Shown here: piece by piece, positions 1 to 7,171 of the stretch | Numbering within the stretch: position 1 is the stretch's first letter | Layout of the letters: each line of letters opens with the position of its first letter | Source of the DNA: a virus | Taxonomy: Duplodnaviria; Heunggongvirae; Uroviricota; Caudoviricetes | Reading direction: 5' to 3' (one strand) | IMG/VR virus record: IMGVR_UViG_2671180577_000007 | DNA: 7,323 nt | The notes under the pieces: model-generated | What the model was told of the DNA's origin: nothing | The model's database searches: none | The model's input: the letters and a program-made list of their open reading frames with translations, nothing else | Position numbers and translations under genes: made by a program

Positions 1-1
1 G

Positions 2-742
2 ACACAGACAGAATCAGCGATTCTGGCGCACGCCCGGCGATGTGCGCCAGCGGAGTCGTGCGGCTTCGTGGTAAGCACGCCGGAGGGGGAAAGATATTTT
101 CCCTGCGTGAATATCTCCGGTGAGCCGGAGGCGTATTTCCGTATGTCGCCGGAAGACTGGCTGCAGGCAGAGATGCAGGGTGAGATTGTGGCGCTGGTCC
201 ACAGCCACCCCGGTGGTCTGCCCTGGCTGAGTGAGGCCGACCGGCGGCTGCAGGTGCAGAGTGATTTGCCGTGGTGGCTGGTCTGCCGGGGGACGATTCA
301 TAAGTTCCGCTGTGTGCCGCATCTCACCGGGCGGCGCTTTGAGCACGGGGTGACGGACTGTTACACACTGTTCCGGGATGCTTATCATCTGGCGGGGATT
401 GAGATGCCGGACTTTCATCGTGAGGATGACTGGTGGCGTAACGGCCAGAATCTCTATCTGGATAATCTGGAGGCGACGGGGCTGTATCAGGTGCCGTTGT
501 CAGCGGCACAGCCGGGCGATGTGCTGCTGTGCTGTTTTGGTTCATCAGTGCCGAATCACGCCGCCATTTACTGCGGCGACGGCGAGCTGCTGCACCATAT
601 TCCTGAACAACTGAGCAAACGAGAGAGGTATACAGACAAATGGCAGCGACGCACACACTCCCTCTGGCGTCACCGGGCATGGCGCGCATCTGCCTTTACG
701 GGGATTTACAACGATTTGGTCGCCGCATCGACCTTCGTGTGA
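2..742 (+). CDS. K: Tail tip assembly protein K (MPN/JAMM + NlpC/P60 domains), 5'-partial; reading frame is open from the window edge
   Basis: Frame 2 is open from nt 2 to the TGA at 740-742. The translation carries a JAMM-type motif (HSHPGG...SEAD) and an NlpC/P60-like Cys/His region (GVTDCYTLF...HAAIYCGDGELLHH). A candidate catalytic Glu (PAESCGFVV) lies upstream of both in-window starts (GTG 68, ATG 143), so the true start is probably upstream of the window. The 103-nt overlap with the next gene matches the lambda K/I arrangement as I recall it. Confidence 0.85.
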   Translation, partial: TQTESAILAHARRCAPAESCGFVVSTPEGERYFPCVNISGEPEAYFRMSPEDWLQAEMQGEIVALVHSHPGGLPWLSEADRRLQVQSDLPWWLVCRGTIHKFRCVPHLTGRRFEHGVTDCYTLFRDAYHLAGIEMPDFHREDDWWRNGQNLYLDNLEATGLYQVPLSAAQPGDVLLCCFGSSVPNHAAIYCGDGELLHHIPEQLSKRERYTDKWQRRTHSLWRHRAWRASAFTGIYNDLVAASTFV

Positions 743-1311
743 AAACGGGGGCTGAAGCCATCCGGGCACTGGCCACACAGCTCCCGGCGTTTCGTCAGAA
801 ACTGAGCGACGGCTGGTATCAGGTACGGATTGCCGGGCGGGACGTCAGCACGTCCGGGTTAACGGCGCAGTTACATGAGACTCTGCCTGATGGCGCTGTG
901 ATTCATATTGTTCCCAGAGTCGCCGGGGCCAAGTCAGGTGGCGTATTCCAGATTGTCCTGGGGGCTGCCGCCATTGCCGGATCATTCTTTACCGCCGGAG
1001 CCACCCTTGCAGCATGGGGGGCAGCCATTGGGGCCGGTAGTATGACCGGCATCCTGTTTTCTCTCGGTGCCAGTATGGTGCTCGGTGGTGTGGCGCAGAT
1101 GCTGGCACCGAAAGCCAGAACTCCCCGTACACAGACAACGGATAACGGTAAGCAGAACACCTATTTCTCCTCACTGGATAACATGGTTGCCCAGGGCAAT
1201 GTTCTGCCTGTTCTGTACGGGGAAATGCGCGTGGGGTCTCGCGTGGTTTCTCAGGAGATCAGCACGGCAGACGAAGGGGACGGTGGTCAGGTTGTGGTGA
1301 TTGGTCGCTGA
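640..1311 (+). CDS. I: Tail tip assembly protein I (223 aa)
   Basis: ATG at 640 preceded by GAGAGAGG; 223-aa product with an N-terminal ubiquitin-like region and a Gly/Ala-rich hydrophobic segment (GAAAIAGSFFTAGATLAAWGAAIGAG). Length, overlap with K and sequence are near-identical to lambda gpI as I recall it. Stop TGA 1309-1311. Confidence 0.9.
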   Translation: MAATHTLPLASPGMARICLYGDLQRFGRRIDLRVKTGAEAIRALATQLPAFRQKLSDGWYQVRIAGRDVSTSGLTAQLHETLPDGAVIHIVPRVAGAKSGGVFQIVLGAAAIAGSFFTAGATLAAWGAAIGAGSMTGILFSLGASMVLGGVAQMLAPKARTPRTQTTDNGKQNTYFSSLDNMVAQGNVLPVLYGEMRVGSRVVSQEISTADEGDGGQVVVIGR

Positions 1312-1329
1312 TGCAAAATGTTTTATGTG

Positions 1330-1350
1330 AAACCGCCTGCGGGCGGTTTT
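1330..1350 (+). other. GC-rich RNA hairpin in the I-J intergenic region (terminator-like; probably read through in the late operon)
   Basis: AAACCGCC (1330-1337), loop TGCG, GGCGGTTT (1342-1349), followed by T-rich sequence; sits in the 60-nt gap just upstream of the J RBS (GGAG 1361-1364). Confidence 0.35.
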
Positions 1351-1368
1351 ATCGTTTATGGAGCATGA

Positions 1369-4770
<3,402 letters not shown>

Positions 4771-4789
4771 ATTTTATAACCCATATACG

Positions 4790-4813
4790 GGCGCCAGAAA
4801 TGACGCCTTTTTT
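4790..4813 (+). terminator. Weak hairpin plus T6 tract between J and lom (possible partial terminator)
   Basis: GGCG (4790-4793) pairs with CGCC (4804-4807) around a 10-nt loop, followed by TTTTTT (4808-4813). The stem is short, so activity is uncertain. Confidence 0.25.
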
Positions 4814-4837
4814 ATTGCAGAAAAGCGAGAGGTAATT

Positions 4838-5437
4838 ATGCGTAAACTTTATGCCGCCATTTTGTCCGCAGCCATTTGTCTGGCCGTATCCGGTGCGTCT
4901 GCATGGGCGTCTGAACATCAGTCCACGCTGAGCGCGGGCTATCTTCATGCCTCGACGAACGTTTCCGGCAGCGATGATCTGAACGGGATTAACGTGAAAT
5001 ACCGTTATGAGTTTACGGACACGCTGGGAATGGTGACGTCATTCAGCTATGCAGGAGACAAGAATCGCCAGCTTACCCGTTACAGCGATACCCGCTGGCA
5101 TGAAGATTCCGTGCGTAACCGCTGGTTCAGCGTAATGGCGGGGCCGTCTGTGCGCGTGAATGAATGGTTCAGCGCGTATGCGATGGCGGGTGTGGCTTAC
5201 AGCCGTGTGTCGACTTTCTCCGGGGATTATCTCCGCGTAATTGACAACAAGGGGAAAACGCACGACGTGCTGACCGGAAGTGATGACGGTCGCCACAGCA
5301 ACACGTCTCTGGCGTGGGGAGCTGGCGTGCAGTTTAACCCGACCGAATCCGTGGCCATTGATATTGCTTATGAAGGCTCCGGCAGTGGTGACTGGCGCAC
5401 TGACGGTTTCATCGTGGGTGTCGGTTATAAATTCTGA
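4838..5437 (+). CDS. lom: Lom outer-membrane protein (Ail/Lom/PagC family 8-stranded beta-barrel), 199 aa
   Basis: ATG at 4838 with GAGAGG RBS; N-terminal signal peptide ([24 protein letters not shown]). The C-terminus [25 protein letters not shown] matches the Lom/Ail family and ends in the aromatic residue typical of outer-membrane barrels. Position immediately after J matches lambda lom. Confidence 0.9.
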
Positions 5438-5463
5438 TTAGCCAGGTAACACAGTGTTATGAC

Positions 5464-5490
5464 AGCCCGCCGGTTCAGGCGGGCTTTTTT
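5464..5490 (+). terminator. Rho-independent terminator downstream of lom
   Basis: Perfect 8-bp GC-rich stem AGCCCGCC (5464-5471) / GGCGGGCT (5478-5485) with loop GGTTCA, followed immediately by a T6 run (5485-5490). Confidence 0.8.
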
Positions 5491-5501
5491 GTGGGGTGAA
5501 T

Positions 5502-6815
5502 ATGGCAGTAAAGATTTCAGGTGTACTGAAAGACGGCACAGGAAAACCGGTACAGAACTGCACAATCCAGCTGAAAGCAAAACGTAACAGCACCACGGTG
5601 GTGGTGAACACGCTGGCCTCAGAAAATCCGGATGAAGCCGGGCGTTACAGCATGGACGTTGAGTACGGTCAGTACAGCGTTATTCTGTTGGTGGAAGGAT
5701 TCCCGCCGTCACATGCTGGGACCATCACCGTGTATGAAGATTCCCGACCCGGTACGCTGAATGATTTTCTCGGAGCCATGTCGGAGGATGACGTCCGGCC
5801 GGAGGCACTGCGCCGTTTTGAACTGATGGTGGAAGAGGTGGCGCGTCACGCTGAGGAGGCGAAGAAGAATGCCGGAGAGGCGGAGACGTCAGCGAGGAAT
5901 GCCGGCATATCAGCCAGTCAGGCAGAAGAGAGCGCTGCAAATGCTGACACTTCAGCAGGGGAGGCATCGGAGTCAGCCCGGCAGGCGGCAGAAAGTGCAG
6001 CCTCAGCAAAGCAGTCAGAGGAGGCGTCCTCGTCCTCGGCTTCTGCGGCCGCTCAAAAAGCCAGTGAGTCATCACAAAGTGCAGCAGAAGCTGAATTGTC
6101 AAGAAAGACGGCAGAAAGTGCAGCCGGTAATGCAGCCAGGGATGCAACGACCGCAACAGAAAAAGCCCGGGAGTCAGCAGAAAGCGCACAGTCAGCGGAA
6201 CAAAGCAGGATAGCGGCGGAAGAAGCCGTAAACAGAATCCCCACCGTGGTGGGACCTCCCGGGCCAAAGGGGGAACAGGGGCCCGCGGGTCCTCAGGGGC
6301 CGAAGGGTGATAAGGGAGAGCGCGGTGACACCGGCCCTGTCGGGGCAACCGGCGAACGGGGACCGGCAGGTGATGCTGGTCCGGCAGGCCCGCAGGGGCC
6401 GAAAGGTGACAGGGGAGAGCGGGGAGAGACCGGTCTGACGGGAAATGCAGGTCCACAGGGTCCAAAGGGAGATACCGGTGCGGCAGGCCCGGCAGGCCCA
6501 CAGGGACCGAAAGGAGAAACAGGTGCGGCTGGCCCGGTGGGGGCAACCGGACCTCAGGGACCGAAGGGCGACCCGGGGGAGACACAAATCCGTTTTCGTC
6601 TGGGGCCGGGAAACATTATTGAGACAAACAGCAATGGCTGGTTCCCGGATACAGATGGCGCACTCATCACCGGACTGACCTTTCTTGCCCCCAAAGATAC
6701 CACACGGGTTCAGGGTTTTTTTCAGCATTTGCAGGTCAGGTTTGGTGACGGGCCGTGGCAGGATGTTAAGGGGCTGGATGAAGTGGGCAGTGATACAGGC
6801 AGAACAGGAGAATGA
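5502..6815 (+). CDS. stf: Side-tail-fibre-like protein with lambda-Stf-type N-terminus, Ala/Ser/Glu-rich repeat region, collagen-like (Gly-X-Y)37 domain and a short distinct C-terminal domain (437 aa)
   Basis: ATG at 5502 gives [37 protein letters not shown]..., matching the lambda Stf N-terminus as recalled; the ORF track starts 2 codons earlier at GTG 5496. It lies 64 nt after lom, as in lambda. An A/S/E-rich low-complexity region spans ~5850-6240, the uninterrupted Gly-X-Y run spans 6252-6584, and a 76-aa C-terminal domain follows before TGA 6813-6815. Confidence 0.85.
6252..6584 (+). repeat. Collagen-like triple-helix repeat: 37 consecutive Gly-X-Y triplets with a recurring GPQGPKGD/E unit
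   Basis: Translation [111 protein letters not shown], with Gly at every third residue and no interruption. The unit GPQGPKG recurs at least four times, with matching near-repeats at DNA level. Confidence 0.9.
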
Positions 6816-6816
6816 C

Positions 6817-7086
6817 ATGAACATATTAAAAAAAATTATGCAGCGTCTGTGCGGTTGCGGAAAGCATGATGACCGTGAAGACGGGGAGTTACTTACAGCA
6901 CAGCTGCGACTGGGACCGGCAGACATTCTGGAGTCAGATGAGAATGGCATTATCCCGGAGCAGGACAGGGTAATCACGCAGGTGGTGATACTGGATGCGG
7001 ATAAAAAGCAGATACAGTGTGTGGTAAGACCGCTGCAAATCCTGCGTGCTGACGGGAGGTGGGAAAATATTGGCGGGATGAAGTAA
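6817..7086 (+). CDS. Small hypothetical protein (89 aa), translationally coupled to the fibre gene; function unknown (candidate fibre chaperone/assembly factor or cargo gene)
   Basis: ATG at 6817 lies 1 nt after the fibre stop, with AGGAG (6806-6810) 6 nt upstream. Product MNILKKIMQRLCGCGKHDDREDGELLTAQLRLGPADILESDENGIIPEQDRVITQVVILDADKKQIQCVVRPLQILRADGRWENIGGMK is acidic with no signal peptide. The ORF track extends it upstream to 6685, but that part overlaps the fibre gene out of frame and lacks an RBS. A terminator follows. Confidence 0.55.
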   Translation: MNILKKIMQRLCGCGKHDDREDGELLTAQLRLGPADILESDENGIIPEQDRVITQVVILDADKKQIQCVVRPLQILRADGRWENIGGMK

Positions 7087-7100
7087 CCCGACAGCTTCAC

Positions 7101-7126
7101 AAAACCGGAGTCCGGCTCCGGTTTTT
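7101..7126 (+). terminator. Rho-independent terminator after the small ORF
   Basis: AAAACCGGAG (7101-7110) / CTCCGGTTTT (7116-7125) form a 10-bp stem with loop TCCGG and a T5 run (7122-7126), 15 nt after the TAA at 7084-7086. The A-tract/T-tract symmetry suggests it could work in both directions. Confidence 0.65.
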
Positions 7127-7171
7127 GTTGTCATGTAAGGCAGATGTTTGTTAAAGCTATTTAAGTCTGGA

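What the first reader, a model, noticed from the sequence alone, without database searches (positions are those of the whole stretch)
2..142. K reading frame extends upstream of the canonical lambda-type ATG and encodes the likely catalytic Glu of the JAMM domain
The ATG at 143 gives a 199-aa product matching the annotated lambda K length as recalled. However, the frame is open back to the window edge and encodes ...AILAHARRCAPAESCGFVV..., which resembles the N-terminal Glu-containing strand of MPN/JAMM metalloproteases about 55 residues upstream of HSHP...SEAD. Starting at 143 would remove that residue, so the functional K probably starts upstream and overlaps the end of L.
Basis: partly seen in the sequence, partly recalled or inferred. 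Interest (0 to 1): 0.4.

Follow-up and report, generated by a model that had tools for sequence, protein, structure and literature searches.

The report
Lambda tail gene K starts earlier
The phage lambda tail-assembly gene K really begins 48 codons upstream of its textbook start, which restores a complete metalloprotease domain; the short version traces to one missing base in the 1982 reference sequence, and databases already annotate the long form elsewhere.

Summary
The K frame is open from window base 2. Relatives show that base 1 is the G of an ATG lying 5 nt after the stop of gene L, giving a 247-aa protein.

The extra 48 residues are coding. Alone they hit phage tail families at E 4e-31 to 1e-21. 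They raise the Pfam Prok-JAB match from 23 bits (below cut-off, half the profile) to 52 bits (whole profile). They also carry Glu19 in PAESCG, which aligns with the JAMM glutamate of solved JAB proteins and is kept in 102 of 109 diverged homologues. AlphaFold2 gives pLDDT 97 over the whole chain.

The ATG at 143 is not a conserved start: that column is mostly Ile, and it is CTG or ATC even in close relatives.

The 199-aa annotation exists because J02459/NC_001416 lacks one G (window 133). At least ten independent lambda-identical assemblies have that G.

This is not new biology. The JAB + NlpC/P60 architecture was published in 2006, and RefSeq annotates this exact gene as 247 aa in E. coli prophages. 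It is a persistent reference-annotation error that recent lambda papers still repeat.

The parts
1..1 (+). Last base (G) of the true K start codon. The A and T lie just outside the window, and L's stop TAA is 5 nt upstream of the ATG.
   Evidence: Upstream sequence in 10 related records reads ...CAGTAAATCCCATG|ACACAG. PGAP starts the CDS there. No Shine-Dalgarno match (dG +0.7 kcal/mol), so coupling to L termination is inferred.
2..142 (+). Codons 2-48 of K, the N-terminal extension missing from the 199-aa annotation. In the model it forms helix 1 (res 2-14) and strands 20-26 and 29-35 of the MPN/JAB fold.
   Evidence: PHROG hits for the 47 aa alone, E 4e-31 to 1e-21. Pfam Prok-JAB coverage 4-112/114 only when included. 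pLDDT 97-98. dN/dS 0.06-0.7 against relatives, with changes mostly at third positions.
53..55 (+). GAG = Glu19 (247-aa numbering), the candidate catalytic glutamate of the JAMM motif, within P17-A-E19-S-C21-G22.
   Evidence: Aligned to the Glu of the PNEACG, PEEGCG and VEVCG motifs in PDB 2kks, 2kcq and 5ld9/5lda. Conserved in 102/109 homologues of 35-60% identity; C21 97/109, G22 105/109, P17 95/109.
127..131 (+). GGAGG inside the coding sequence (codons Pro-Glu-Ala), 11 nt before the ATG at 143. It was taken as the ribosome-binding site of the 199-aa K in lambda records.
   Evidence: Anti-SD duplex -9.5 kcal/mol. Annotated as RBS in OM418625. Present in relatives whose codon 49 is CTG or ATC, and absent in Citrobacter relatives that keep the ATG.
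133..133 (+). The G that is absent from the reference lambda sequence J02459/NC_001416 (between its positions 14266 and 14267). Its absence frameshifts the upstream part of K in that record.
   Evidence: Alignments. Present in LC730321, PV340536, KT232076, imm21 and HK629, and in 10 or more lambda-identical contigs with 0 mismatches to NC_001416 over up to 3.7 kb apart from this one gap.
143..145 (+). ATG = Met49, the start of the 199-aa annotation. It is an internal hydrophobic position of the MPN domain.
   Evidence: In 109 homologues the column is Ile 64, Met 15, Leu 14, Val 6. The codon is CTG in L026 and ATC in L035, at 96% and 87% amino-acid identity to the window K.
200..241 (+). JAMM zinc-site motif H68-S-H70-x7-S78-x2-D81.
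   Evidence: Read directly from the sequence. Conserved H68 105, H70 103, S78 98 (+7 Thr) and D81 105 of 109.
329..670 (+). NlpC/P60 (C40) cysteine-peptidase domain with putative triad Cys121 (359-361), His187 (557-559) and His199 (593-595).
   Evidence: Pfam PF00877, E 6e-13, residues 110-223. C121 103/109, H187 104/109, H199 104/109. Fold matches to MepS/Spr and LytE.
740..742 (+). K stop codon TGA. It overlaps the GTG at 739-741 that PGAP uses as the start of gene I.

Best explanation
**What it is.** Window 2-142 is the true 5' part of tail-assembly gene K.

**Start and product.** K is translated from an ATG that lies 5 nt after the stop of gene L. Its last base is window base 1. There is no Shine-Dalgarno sequence, so initiation is probably coupled to termination of L (inferred). 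The product is a 247-aa, two-domain peptidase:
- Residues 1 to about 105 form a complete JAMM/MPN+ (Prok-JAB) metalloprotease domain. Its predicted zinc/catalytic set is Glu19, His68, His70, Ser78 and Asp81.
- Residues about 110-225 form an NlpC/P60 cysteine peptidase with Cys121, His187 and His199.

**Why the short form exists.** The 199-aa K from ATG 143 is an annotation artefact. The 1982 reference sequence (J02459/NC_001416) lacks one G, 10 nt before that ATG. In that record the upstream part is therefore out of frame, and the next ATG with a GGAGG was chosen as the start.

**Function (inferred, not shown here).** K acts as a non-structural assembly protease at the tail tip. The published hypothesis is that its JAB domain cuts the ubiquitin-like N-terminal domain off gpI. 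It is also a candidate for the uncharacterised gpH to gpH* cleavage.
For: **Start position**
- ...TAA ATCCC ATG precedes the window in 10 records. It is the first start after an in-frame stop.
- PGAP annotates the identical DNA as the 247-aa WP_000194780.1 'C40 family peptidase'. Lambda record PV340536 also annotates 247 aa.
- Homologues are mostly 242-249 aa and carry PF14464 + PF00877.
- In 17 diverged loci, an ATG lies 13-19 codons before the Glu in every case.

**Domain completeness**
- Prok-JAB scores 52.1 bits over profile 4-112 with the extension, against 23.3 bits over 63-112 without it.
- The family profile matches solved JAB proteins 2kks (E 8e-14), 2kcq and PfJAMM1 5ld9/5lda (E 1e-11), with the Glu aligned.
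- AF2 gives pLDDT 97.4 and pTM 0.92, with residues 1-47 at 97-98.
- Foldseek hits PfJAMM1 (TM 0.67-0.71 normalised to the target, rmsd 2.5 A), CSN5, Rpn11 and AMSH, plus MepS/LytE for the C-terminal domain.

**Conservation**
- Glu19 is kept in 102 of 109 homologues, and the His/Ser/Asp positions in 98-105 of 109. Met49 is kept in only 15 of 109.
- dN/dS is below 1 in codons 2-48. The best-powered pair, L035, gives dS 0.51 and omega 0.057.

**Reference error**
- J02459 lacks the G.
- Ten or more independent contigs are otherwise identical to NC_001416 over up to 3.7 kb and carry the G.

**Function**
- Iyer, Burroughs and Aravind 2006 (PMC1779556) described K as JAB + NlpC/P60 next to a ubiquitin-like gpI.
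- gpK is absent from virions by mass spectrometry (PMC10721106).
- Only gpI residues 134/135-223 are resolved in virions.
- How gpH cleavage is catalysed is unknown (PMC12617516).
Against: - No protein-level evidence was available here for the N-terminus of K: no N-terminal sequencing, proteomics or ribosome profiling.
- The upstream ATG has no Shine-Dalgarno match, while ATG 143 has a strong one (-9.5 kcal/mol). Some initiation at 143 cannot be excluded.
- dN/dS for codons 2-48 is based on few sites and is noisy (0.06-0.7). It is often higher than for the rest of the gene (0.11-0.18).
- Two further lambda records (OR474059, OR974322) also lack the G. One is marked 'UNVERIFIED'. The other carries feature coordinates identical to NC_001416, which suggests reference-guided assembly, but I could not prove it.
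- Catalytic activity of either domain, and any substrate, are untested.
Confidence: 0.9

Rival explanations
1. Two products. Both the 247-aa K and an N-terminally truncated 199-aa K' are made from ATG 143, using the internal GGAGG. The short form would have its own role as an NlpC/P60-only protein, much as lambda makes nested products from C/Nu3 or S107/S105.
For: - ATG 143 is preceded by GGAGG with the best anti-SD pairing of any in-frame start (-9.5 kcal/mol, against +0.7 for the upstream ATG).
- NlpC/P60-only K variants exist in some prophages (PMC1779556). phrog_2552 is an NlpC-only family.
Against: - Met49 is not conserved: Ile 64, Met 15, Leu 14 of 109.
- Two close relatives keep the GGAGG but have CTG (L026) or ATC (L035) at codon 49. 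Citrobacter relatives keep ATG but have lost the GGAGG. The start-plus-SD pair is therefore not under joint selection, and GGAGG is explained by the Pro-Glu-Ala codons.
- A 199-aa product would carry about 57 residues of a broken MPN fold, lacking helix 1 and the first hairpin.
Confidence: 0.08
2. The canonical annotation is right for lambda itself. The sequenced laboratory strain would truly carry the 1-nt deletion and make only the 199-aa protein, so the JAMM domain would be dispensable (decayed) in lambda while intact in prophage relatives such as this window.
For: - J02459/NC_001416, OR474059 and OR974322 all lack the G.
- Lambda laboratory strains do carry a real frameshift in another tail gene, stf (PMC10721106).
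Against: - Ten or more independent assemblies with 0 mismatches to NC_001416 over up to 3.7 kb carry the G.
- So do LC730321 (48,503 bp, exactly one base longer than J02459), PV340536, KT232076, lambda imm21/imm434 hybrids, HK629 and HK630.
- OR974322 reuses the reference feature coordinates, and OR474059 is flagged UNVERIFIED.
- Apart from that G, the N-terminal region is identical between J02459 and the G-containing lambda records (0 mismatches), so nothing else marks it as decayed.
Confidence: 0.03
3. The upstream frame is open by chance or is a non-functional remnant, and the JAB-like half of K is an inactive pseudo-enzyme scaffold (MPN-minus) whose N-terminus does not matter.
For: - Many MPN domains, such as Rpn8 and CSN6, are catalytically dead scaffolds (established knowledge).
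- No enzymatic activity has been reported for gpK in the papers read.
Against: - All five JAMM positions (E, H, H, S, D) are kept in 90-96% of 109 homologues at 35-60% identity. That is the MPN+ signature, not MPN-minus.
- The 47 aa alone have E 1e-21 to 4e-31 homology.
- AF2 confidence is 97-98 for these residues.
Confidence: 0.04

Closest known systems
Lambdoid/T1-like tail assembly protein K family (TAPK; PGAP 'C40 family peptidase', e.g. WP_000194780.1; phrog_30)
   Same: The DNA is identical to the gene encoding WP_000194780.1 over window 1-800. It has the same 247-aa length, the same Prok-JAB + NlpC/P60 architecture, and the same position between L and I/J. The architecture and the proposed link to the ubiquitin-like gpI were published in 2006 (PMC1779556).
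   Different: Nothing differs in the sequence. Only the lambda reference-derived records (NC_001416, J02459, HK629, imm21 and others) differ, by annotating 199 aa.
Prokaryotic JAMM/MPN+ deubiquitinase-like proteases (PfJAMM1 5ld9/5lda; AfJAMM 1oi0/1r5x; DSY2949 2kks; Pfam PF14464)
   Same: The motif E-x48-HxH-x7-S-xx-D is present. The fold matches at TM 0.67-0.71 (normalised to the target) and rmsd 2.5 A to PfJAMM1. Profile matches are E 8e-14 to 1e-11 with the Glu aligned. PfJAMM1 acts on a ubiquitin-like protein (SAMP2), which parallels the proposed K-gpI pair.
   Different: The JAB domain is fused to a C-terminal NlpC/P60 domain and encoded in a phage tail module. Its substrate and activity are untested. 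It scores far below the NCBIfam desampylase cut-off (29.5 against 130 bits), so it is not an orthologue of those enzymes.
NlpC/P60 (C40) peptidoglycan endopeptidases (MepS/Spr, LytE, CwlO)
   Same: The C-terminal domain has the fold and the conserved Cys-His-His positions.
   Different: gpK is not found in the virion. A cell-wall-digesting role during infection is therefore doubtful, and a role in processing a tail protein is equally possible.

Membership tests
JAMM/MPN+ metalloprotease (Pfam Prok-JAB PF14464) | Sequence match to the family profile above the curated cut-off, over the whole domain | tested here: met
   With the extension: 52.1 bits against a cut-off of 25, profile 4-112/114. 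The 199-aa form fails at 23.3 bits, profile 63-112 only.
JAMM/MPN+ metalloprotease (Pfam Prok-JAB PF14464) | Complete JAMM motif: Glu ... HxH-x7-S-x2-D | tested here: met
   E19, H68, H70, S78 and D81 are present with canonical spacing. The Glu aligns to that of 2kks, 2kcq and PfJAMM1. Conserved in 98-105 of 109 homologues.
JAMM/MPN+ metalloprotease (Pfam Prok-JAB PF14464) | MPN fold | tested here: met
   AF2 model with pLDDT 97.4. Foldseek hits to PfJAMM1, CSN5, Rpn11, AMSH and 2kks at probability 1.00.
JAMM/MPN+ metalloprotease (Pfam Prok-JAB PF14464) | Zinc binding and (iso)peptidase activity | not testable with these tools
   Needs purified 247-aa protein.
NlpC/P60 (C40) cysteine peptidase | Profile match above cut-off and a conserved Cys-His-His/polar triad | tested here: met
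   PF00877 at 49.2 bits against a cut-off of 23. C121 103/109, H187 104/109, H199 104/109. Fold hits to MepS and LytE.
Lambda-type tail tip assembly protein K | Gene position between L (Fe-S minor tail protein) and I/J in a siphovirus tail module | tested here: met
   The order L-K-I-J is seen in all annotated relatives. I, J and lom follow in the window.
Lambda-type tail tip assembly protein K | Length and start as in the family (about 245 aa, starting just after the L stop) | tested here: met
   Homologues are mostly 242-249 aa. An ATG lies 13-19 codons before the Glu in 17 of 17 diverged loci. The 199-aa form is the outlier.
Lambda-type tail tip assembly protein K | Required for tail assembly, absent from the virion | not testable with these tools
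   Literature only: PMC12617516 and PMC10721106.

The most novel reading that the evidence does not exclude
The Glu19-containing JAMM domain, invisible in the 199-aa textbook protein, may be the missing protease of lambda tail maturation. In this reading it removes the ubiquitin-like N-terminal domain of gpI, of which only residues ~134-223 are resolved in virion structures, and/or it makes the unexplained gpH to gpH* cut. Experiments and models built on the 199-aa K, such as clone sets built from annotated ORFs and HHpred analyses, would have missed it because they used a protein lacking its catalytic glutamate.
Probability: 0.3. Interest if true: 0.6.

Novelty: already known. Interest (0 to 1): 0.25.

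Why it matters
Lambda is the reference siphovirus, and its RefSeq record still encodes a K protein that lacks the first 48 residues, including the catalytic glutamate of its metalloprotease domain.

Recent work still relies on the short form or leaves K unexplained:
- A 2020 review analyses K as '199 residues' and sees only one peptidase domain (PMC7291167).
- Cryo-EM papers from 2023-2025 leave K's role, and the protease that cuts gpH, unexplained (PMC10721106, PMC12617516).

Anyone who clones, models or mutates K from the reference annotation will work with a crippled protein. Correcting the start, and the missing G at 14266/14267, makes a ubiquitin-like/JAMM processing step in tail-tip assembly directly testable. 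The correction itself is routine curation. The domain architecture has been in the literature since 2006, and the 247-aa form is in RefSeq for thousands of E. coli prophages.

Tried and rejected
- **Published note of the error.** I looked for a published note of the sequence error or the corrected K start. Searches found none. The Casjens & Hendrix 2015 review (PMC4424060), Anantharaman & Aravind 2003 (PMC151301) and the lambda ribosome-profiling paper are not held. I have an unverified memory that position 14266 appears in lists of corrections to the lambda sequence; it is not used as evidence.
- **Broader locus search.** The search for related loci with the 93-sequence alignment failed because no stretch was conserved enough. 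I used the single protein instead.
- **Other signals near the start.** A promoter/terminator scan around the L-K junction gave nothing meaningful: 0 promoter-like sites and 1 weak terminator-like hairpin inside L, which is within shuffle expectation.
- **Active-site geometry.** Measuring the Glu19-His-Asp geometry in the model was not possible, because coordinates are not exposed.
- **Overlap with L.** Considered and rejected; a 5-nt gap separates them.
- **Alternative starts.** The GTG at window 68 (224 aa, listed by the ORF finder) and the GTG at 107 (used in KT232076) were considered and rejected. Both lie after Glu19, and neither is conserved as a start.

Full report
**1. What is in the window**

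Window 1-800 corresponds to phage lambda 14135-14933. It is 99.1-99.3% identical to lambda isolates and 100% identical to prophages in four E. coli genomes. The whole window matches an E. coli prophage best: NZ_CP148374.1, 99.7% over 1-7130.

The frame that holds the annotated K gene is open from base 2 to the TGA at 740-742. The ATG at 143-145 gives the 199-aa product annotated in lambda records.

**2. What lies just upstream**

In ten related records the sequence before the window is ...TTTCGCAG TAA ATCCC ATG.
- TAA is the stop of gene L (lambda 14125-14127).
- Window base 1 is the G of the ATG (lambda 14133-14135).
- The next in-frame stop is 8 codons further up, with no other start codon between.

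This ATG has no Shine-Dalgarno match (+0.7 kcal/mol). ATG 143 is preceded by GGAGG (-9.5 kcal/mol). Initiation at the upstream ATG is therefore probably coupled to termination of L. This is an inference, in line with the close-packed neighbouring genes of the same cluster: H/M overlap by 4 nt and M/L by 1 nt.

**3. Why the canonical start exists**

The reference sequence J02459/NC_001416 lacks one G, at window 133. It reads GGAGGC-TATTTCC where the other records read GGAGGCGTATTTCC. The gap falls between reference positions 14266 and 14267, 10 nt before ATG 143. In that record the upstream part is out of frame, and the first ATG after the shift, with its GGAGG, was taken as the start.

The G is present in:
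- lambda records LC730321 (48,503 bp, one base longer than J02459), PV340536 and KT232076;
- imm21 and imm434 hybrids, HK629 and HK630.

A scan of one genome per bacterial species gave further evidence. It found contigs in assemblies of unrelated organisms (Neobacillus, Pseudomonas, Chromatium, Shewanella, Leeuwenhoekiella and others), several with about 1x coverage in their names and up to about 48.5 kb long. Ten of these have 0 mismatches to NC_001416 over 2.6-3.7 kb apart from exactly one gap, which is this G. I read them as lambda DNA contamination, and so as independent re-sequencings of lambda. That reading is inferred from the contig names and the identity.

Two more records lack the G. 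OR474059 is flagged UNVERIFIED. OR974322 reuses the reference feature coordinates. Both look reference-guided, though I cannot prove it. A sequencing error in the 1982 record is by far the likeliest explanation.

**4. Is the extension coding and functional?**

*Family matches*
- The 47 residues alone hit PHROG tail families at E 3.8e-31 to 1.1e-21.
- Pfam Prok-JAB (PF14464) scores 52.1 bits (E 7e-14) over profile positions 4-112 of 114 with the extension.
- Without the extension it scores 23.3 bits over positions 63-112, below the 25-bit cut-off.

*Solved structures*
- A phmmer search of the PDB finds the JAB protein 2kks, with PAESCG aligned to PNEACG.
- A profile of 93 homologues finds 2kks (8e-14), 2kcq (8e-13) and Pyrococcus JAMM1 5ld9/5lda (1e-11). 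PfJAMM1 is a deubiquitinase homologue solved in complex with the ubiquitin-like SAMP2. In every case the family's 'pkEaCG' aligns with the Glu motif of the solved protein.

*Conservation in 109 cluster representatives of 35-60% identity*

| Position | Conserved |
|---|---|
| Glu19 | 102 |
| Cys21 | 97 |
| Gly22 | 105 |
| His68 | 105 |
| His70 | 103 |
| Ser78 | 98 (+7 Thr) |
| Asp81 | 105 |
| Cys121 (NlpC/P60) | 103 |
| His187 (NlpC/P60) | 104 |
| His199 (NlpC/P60) | 104 |

*Structure prediction*
- AlphaFold2 with that alignment gives pLDDT 97.4 and pTM 0.92.
- Residues 1-47 score 97-98 and form a helix (2-14) and a hairpin (20-26, 29-35).
- Foldseek against the PDB returns PfJAMM1 (TM 0.67-0.71 on the target, rmsd 2.5 A), CSN5, Rpn11, AMSH and 2kks for the N-terminal half. 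It returns MepS/Spr and LytE for the C-terminal half.

*Codon-level comparison with relatives*
- Changes in codons 2-48 are mostly synonymous. For E. albertii L035: dS 0.51, dN 0.029, omega 0.06, with 12 of 16 changes at third positions.
- Other pairs are noisy, at omega 0.1-0.7.

**5. Is ATG 143 a real start as well?**
- Column 49 is Ile in 64, Met in 15, Leu in 14 and Val in 6 of 109 homologues.
- Two relatives keep the GGAGG but have no start codon at position 49: CTG in L026 (96% amino-acid identity to the window K) and ATC in L035 (87%).
- Citrobacter relatives keep the ATG but have no GGAGG.
- In all 17 diverged loci examined, an ATG lies 13-19 codons before the Glu.

The GGAGG is explained by the Pro-Glu-Ala codons. 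A minor internal initiation in lambda cannot be excluded, but nothing indicates selection for it. The product would carry a broken MPN fold.

**6. What is already known**
- Iyer, Burroughs and Aravind (2006, PMC1779556) described the lambdoid/T1 'TAPK' as JAB + NlpC/P60, next to a ubiquitin-like gpI. They proposed that K processes I at the C-terminal glycine of the ubiquitin-like domain.
- PGAP annotates this very gene as the 247-aa WP_000194780.1. One lambda record (PV340536) does the same.
- Database homologues are mostly 242-249 aa with both Pfam domains.

The finding is therefore an already-known protein family and an already-corrected annotation in many records.

What persists is the wrong K in NC_001416 and in records copied from it, and in the literature:
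- A 2020 review analyses '199 residues' and finds only one peptidase domain (PMC7291167).
- Cryo-EM papers from 2023 and 2025 do not find gpK in the virion and leave its role open.
- The lambda two-hybrid map found no tail partners for K (PMC3224144). I could not check which ORF was cloned.

**7. Mechanism**

*Shown here:* the sequence, the start context, the domain architecture, active-site conservation and the predicted fold.

*Inferred:* coupled translation from the ATG after L, and that both peptidase centres are active, because both motifs are conserved.

*Hypothesis from the literature:* the JAMM domain cleaves the ubiquitin-like domain off gpI.
- It is consistent with only gpI 134/135-223 being resolved in virions, though that is no proof of cleavage.
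- K is also a candidate for the gpH to gpH* cut, whose catalyst is stated to be unknown.

**8. Verdict**

It is wrong on the overlap with L, and it misses the reference frameshift. The result is low in novelty and modest in interest. Its practical value is as a correction for anyone working on lambda K.

Noticed in passing
window 640-742 and 739-1311: The start of gene I is also annotated inconsistently. Lambda-derived records start I at the ATG at 640 (223 aa, overlapping K by 103 nt). PGAP and PV340536 start it at the GTG at 739 (GTGA overlap with the K stop, 190 aa). Cryo-EM papers number gpI on the 223-aa form and resolve only residues 134/135-223.
   Followed up: no
L011-L022, L028, L031, L036, L037 and others: Genome assemblies of many unrelated bacteria (Neobacillus, Pseudomonas, Chromatium, Shewanella, Leeuwenhoekiella, Bradyrhizobium, Paenibacillus and others) contain contigs identical to phage lambda, several with about 1x coverage in their names and up to ~48.5 kb long. 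This is apparently lambda DNA contamination in public assemblies. Here the contigs served as independent re-sequencing of lambda.
   Followed up: partly
window 5496-6815: A 439-aa tail-fibre ORF with an Ala/Glu/Ser-rich coiled-coil-like stretch, followed by long collagen-like Gly-X-Y repeats ([22 protein letters not shown]...). PGAP calls the homologue 'prophage tail fiber N-terminal domain-containing protein'. It differs from lambda stf. The window is a lambda-like prophage, not lambda.
   Followed up: no
window 4838-5437: A Lom/Ail-family outer-membrane protein gene (199 aa) lies downstream of J. In the related prophage of L004 the homologue is annotated as frameshifted.
   Followed up: no
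window 2-226 (K residues 1-75): phrog_7305, a 76-position family of 'unknown function', matches K residues 1-75. phrog_2635 (135 positions) covers the JAB half and phrog_2552 (142 positions) covers the NlpC/P60 half. Split or truncated K genes are frequent enough in phage records to have formed their own families, probably through frameshifts and mis-called starts like the one in the lambda reference.
   Followed up: no
L060, L061, L063: Several chromosomal copies in recent E. coli and Shigella assemblies (CP178302, CP182556) have K ORFs broken by many indels: 18-32 gap openings over 860 nt in the alignment to lambda K. These may be decaying prophages or indel-rich assemblies.
   Followed up: no
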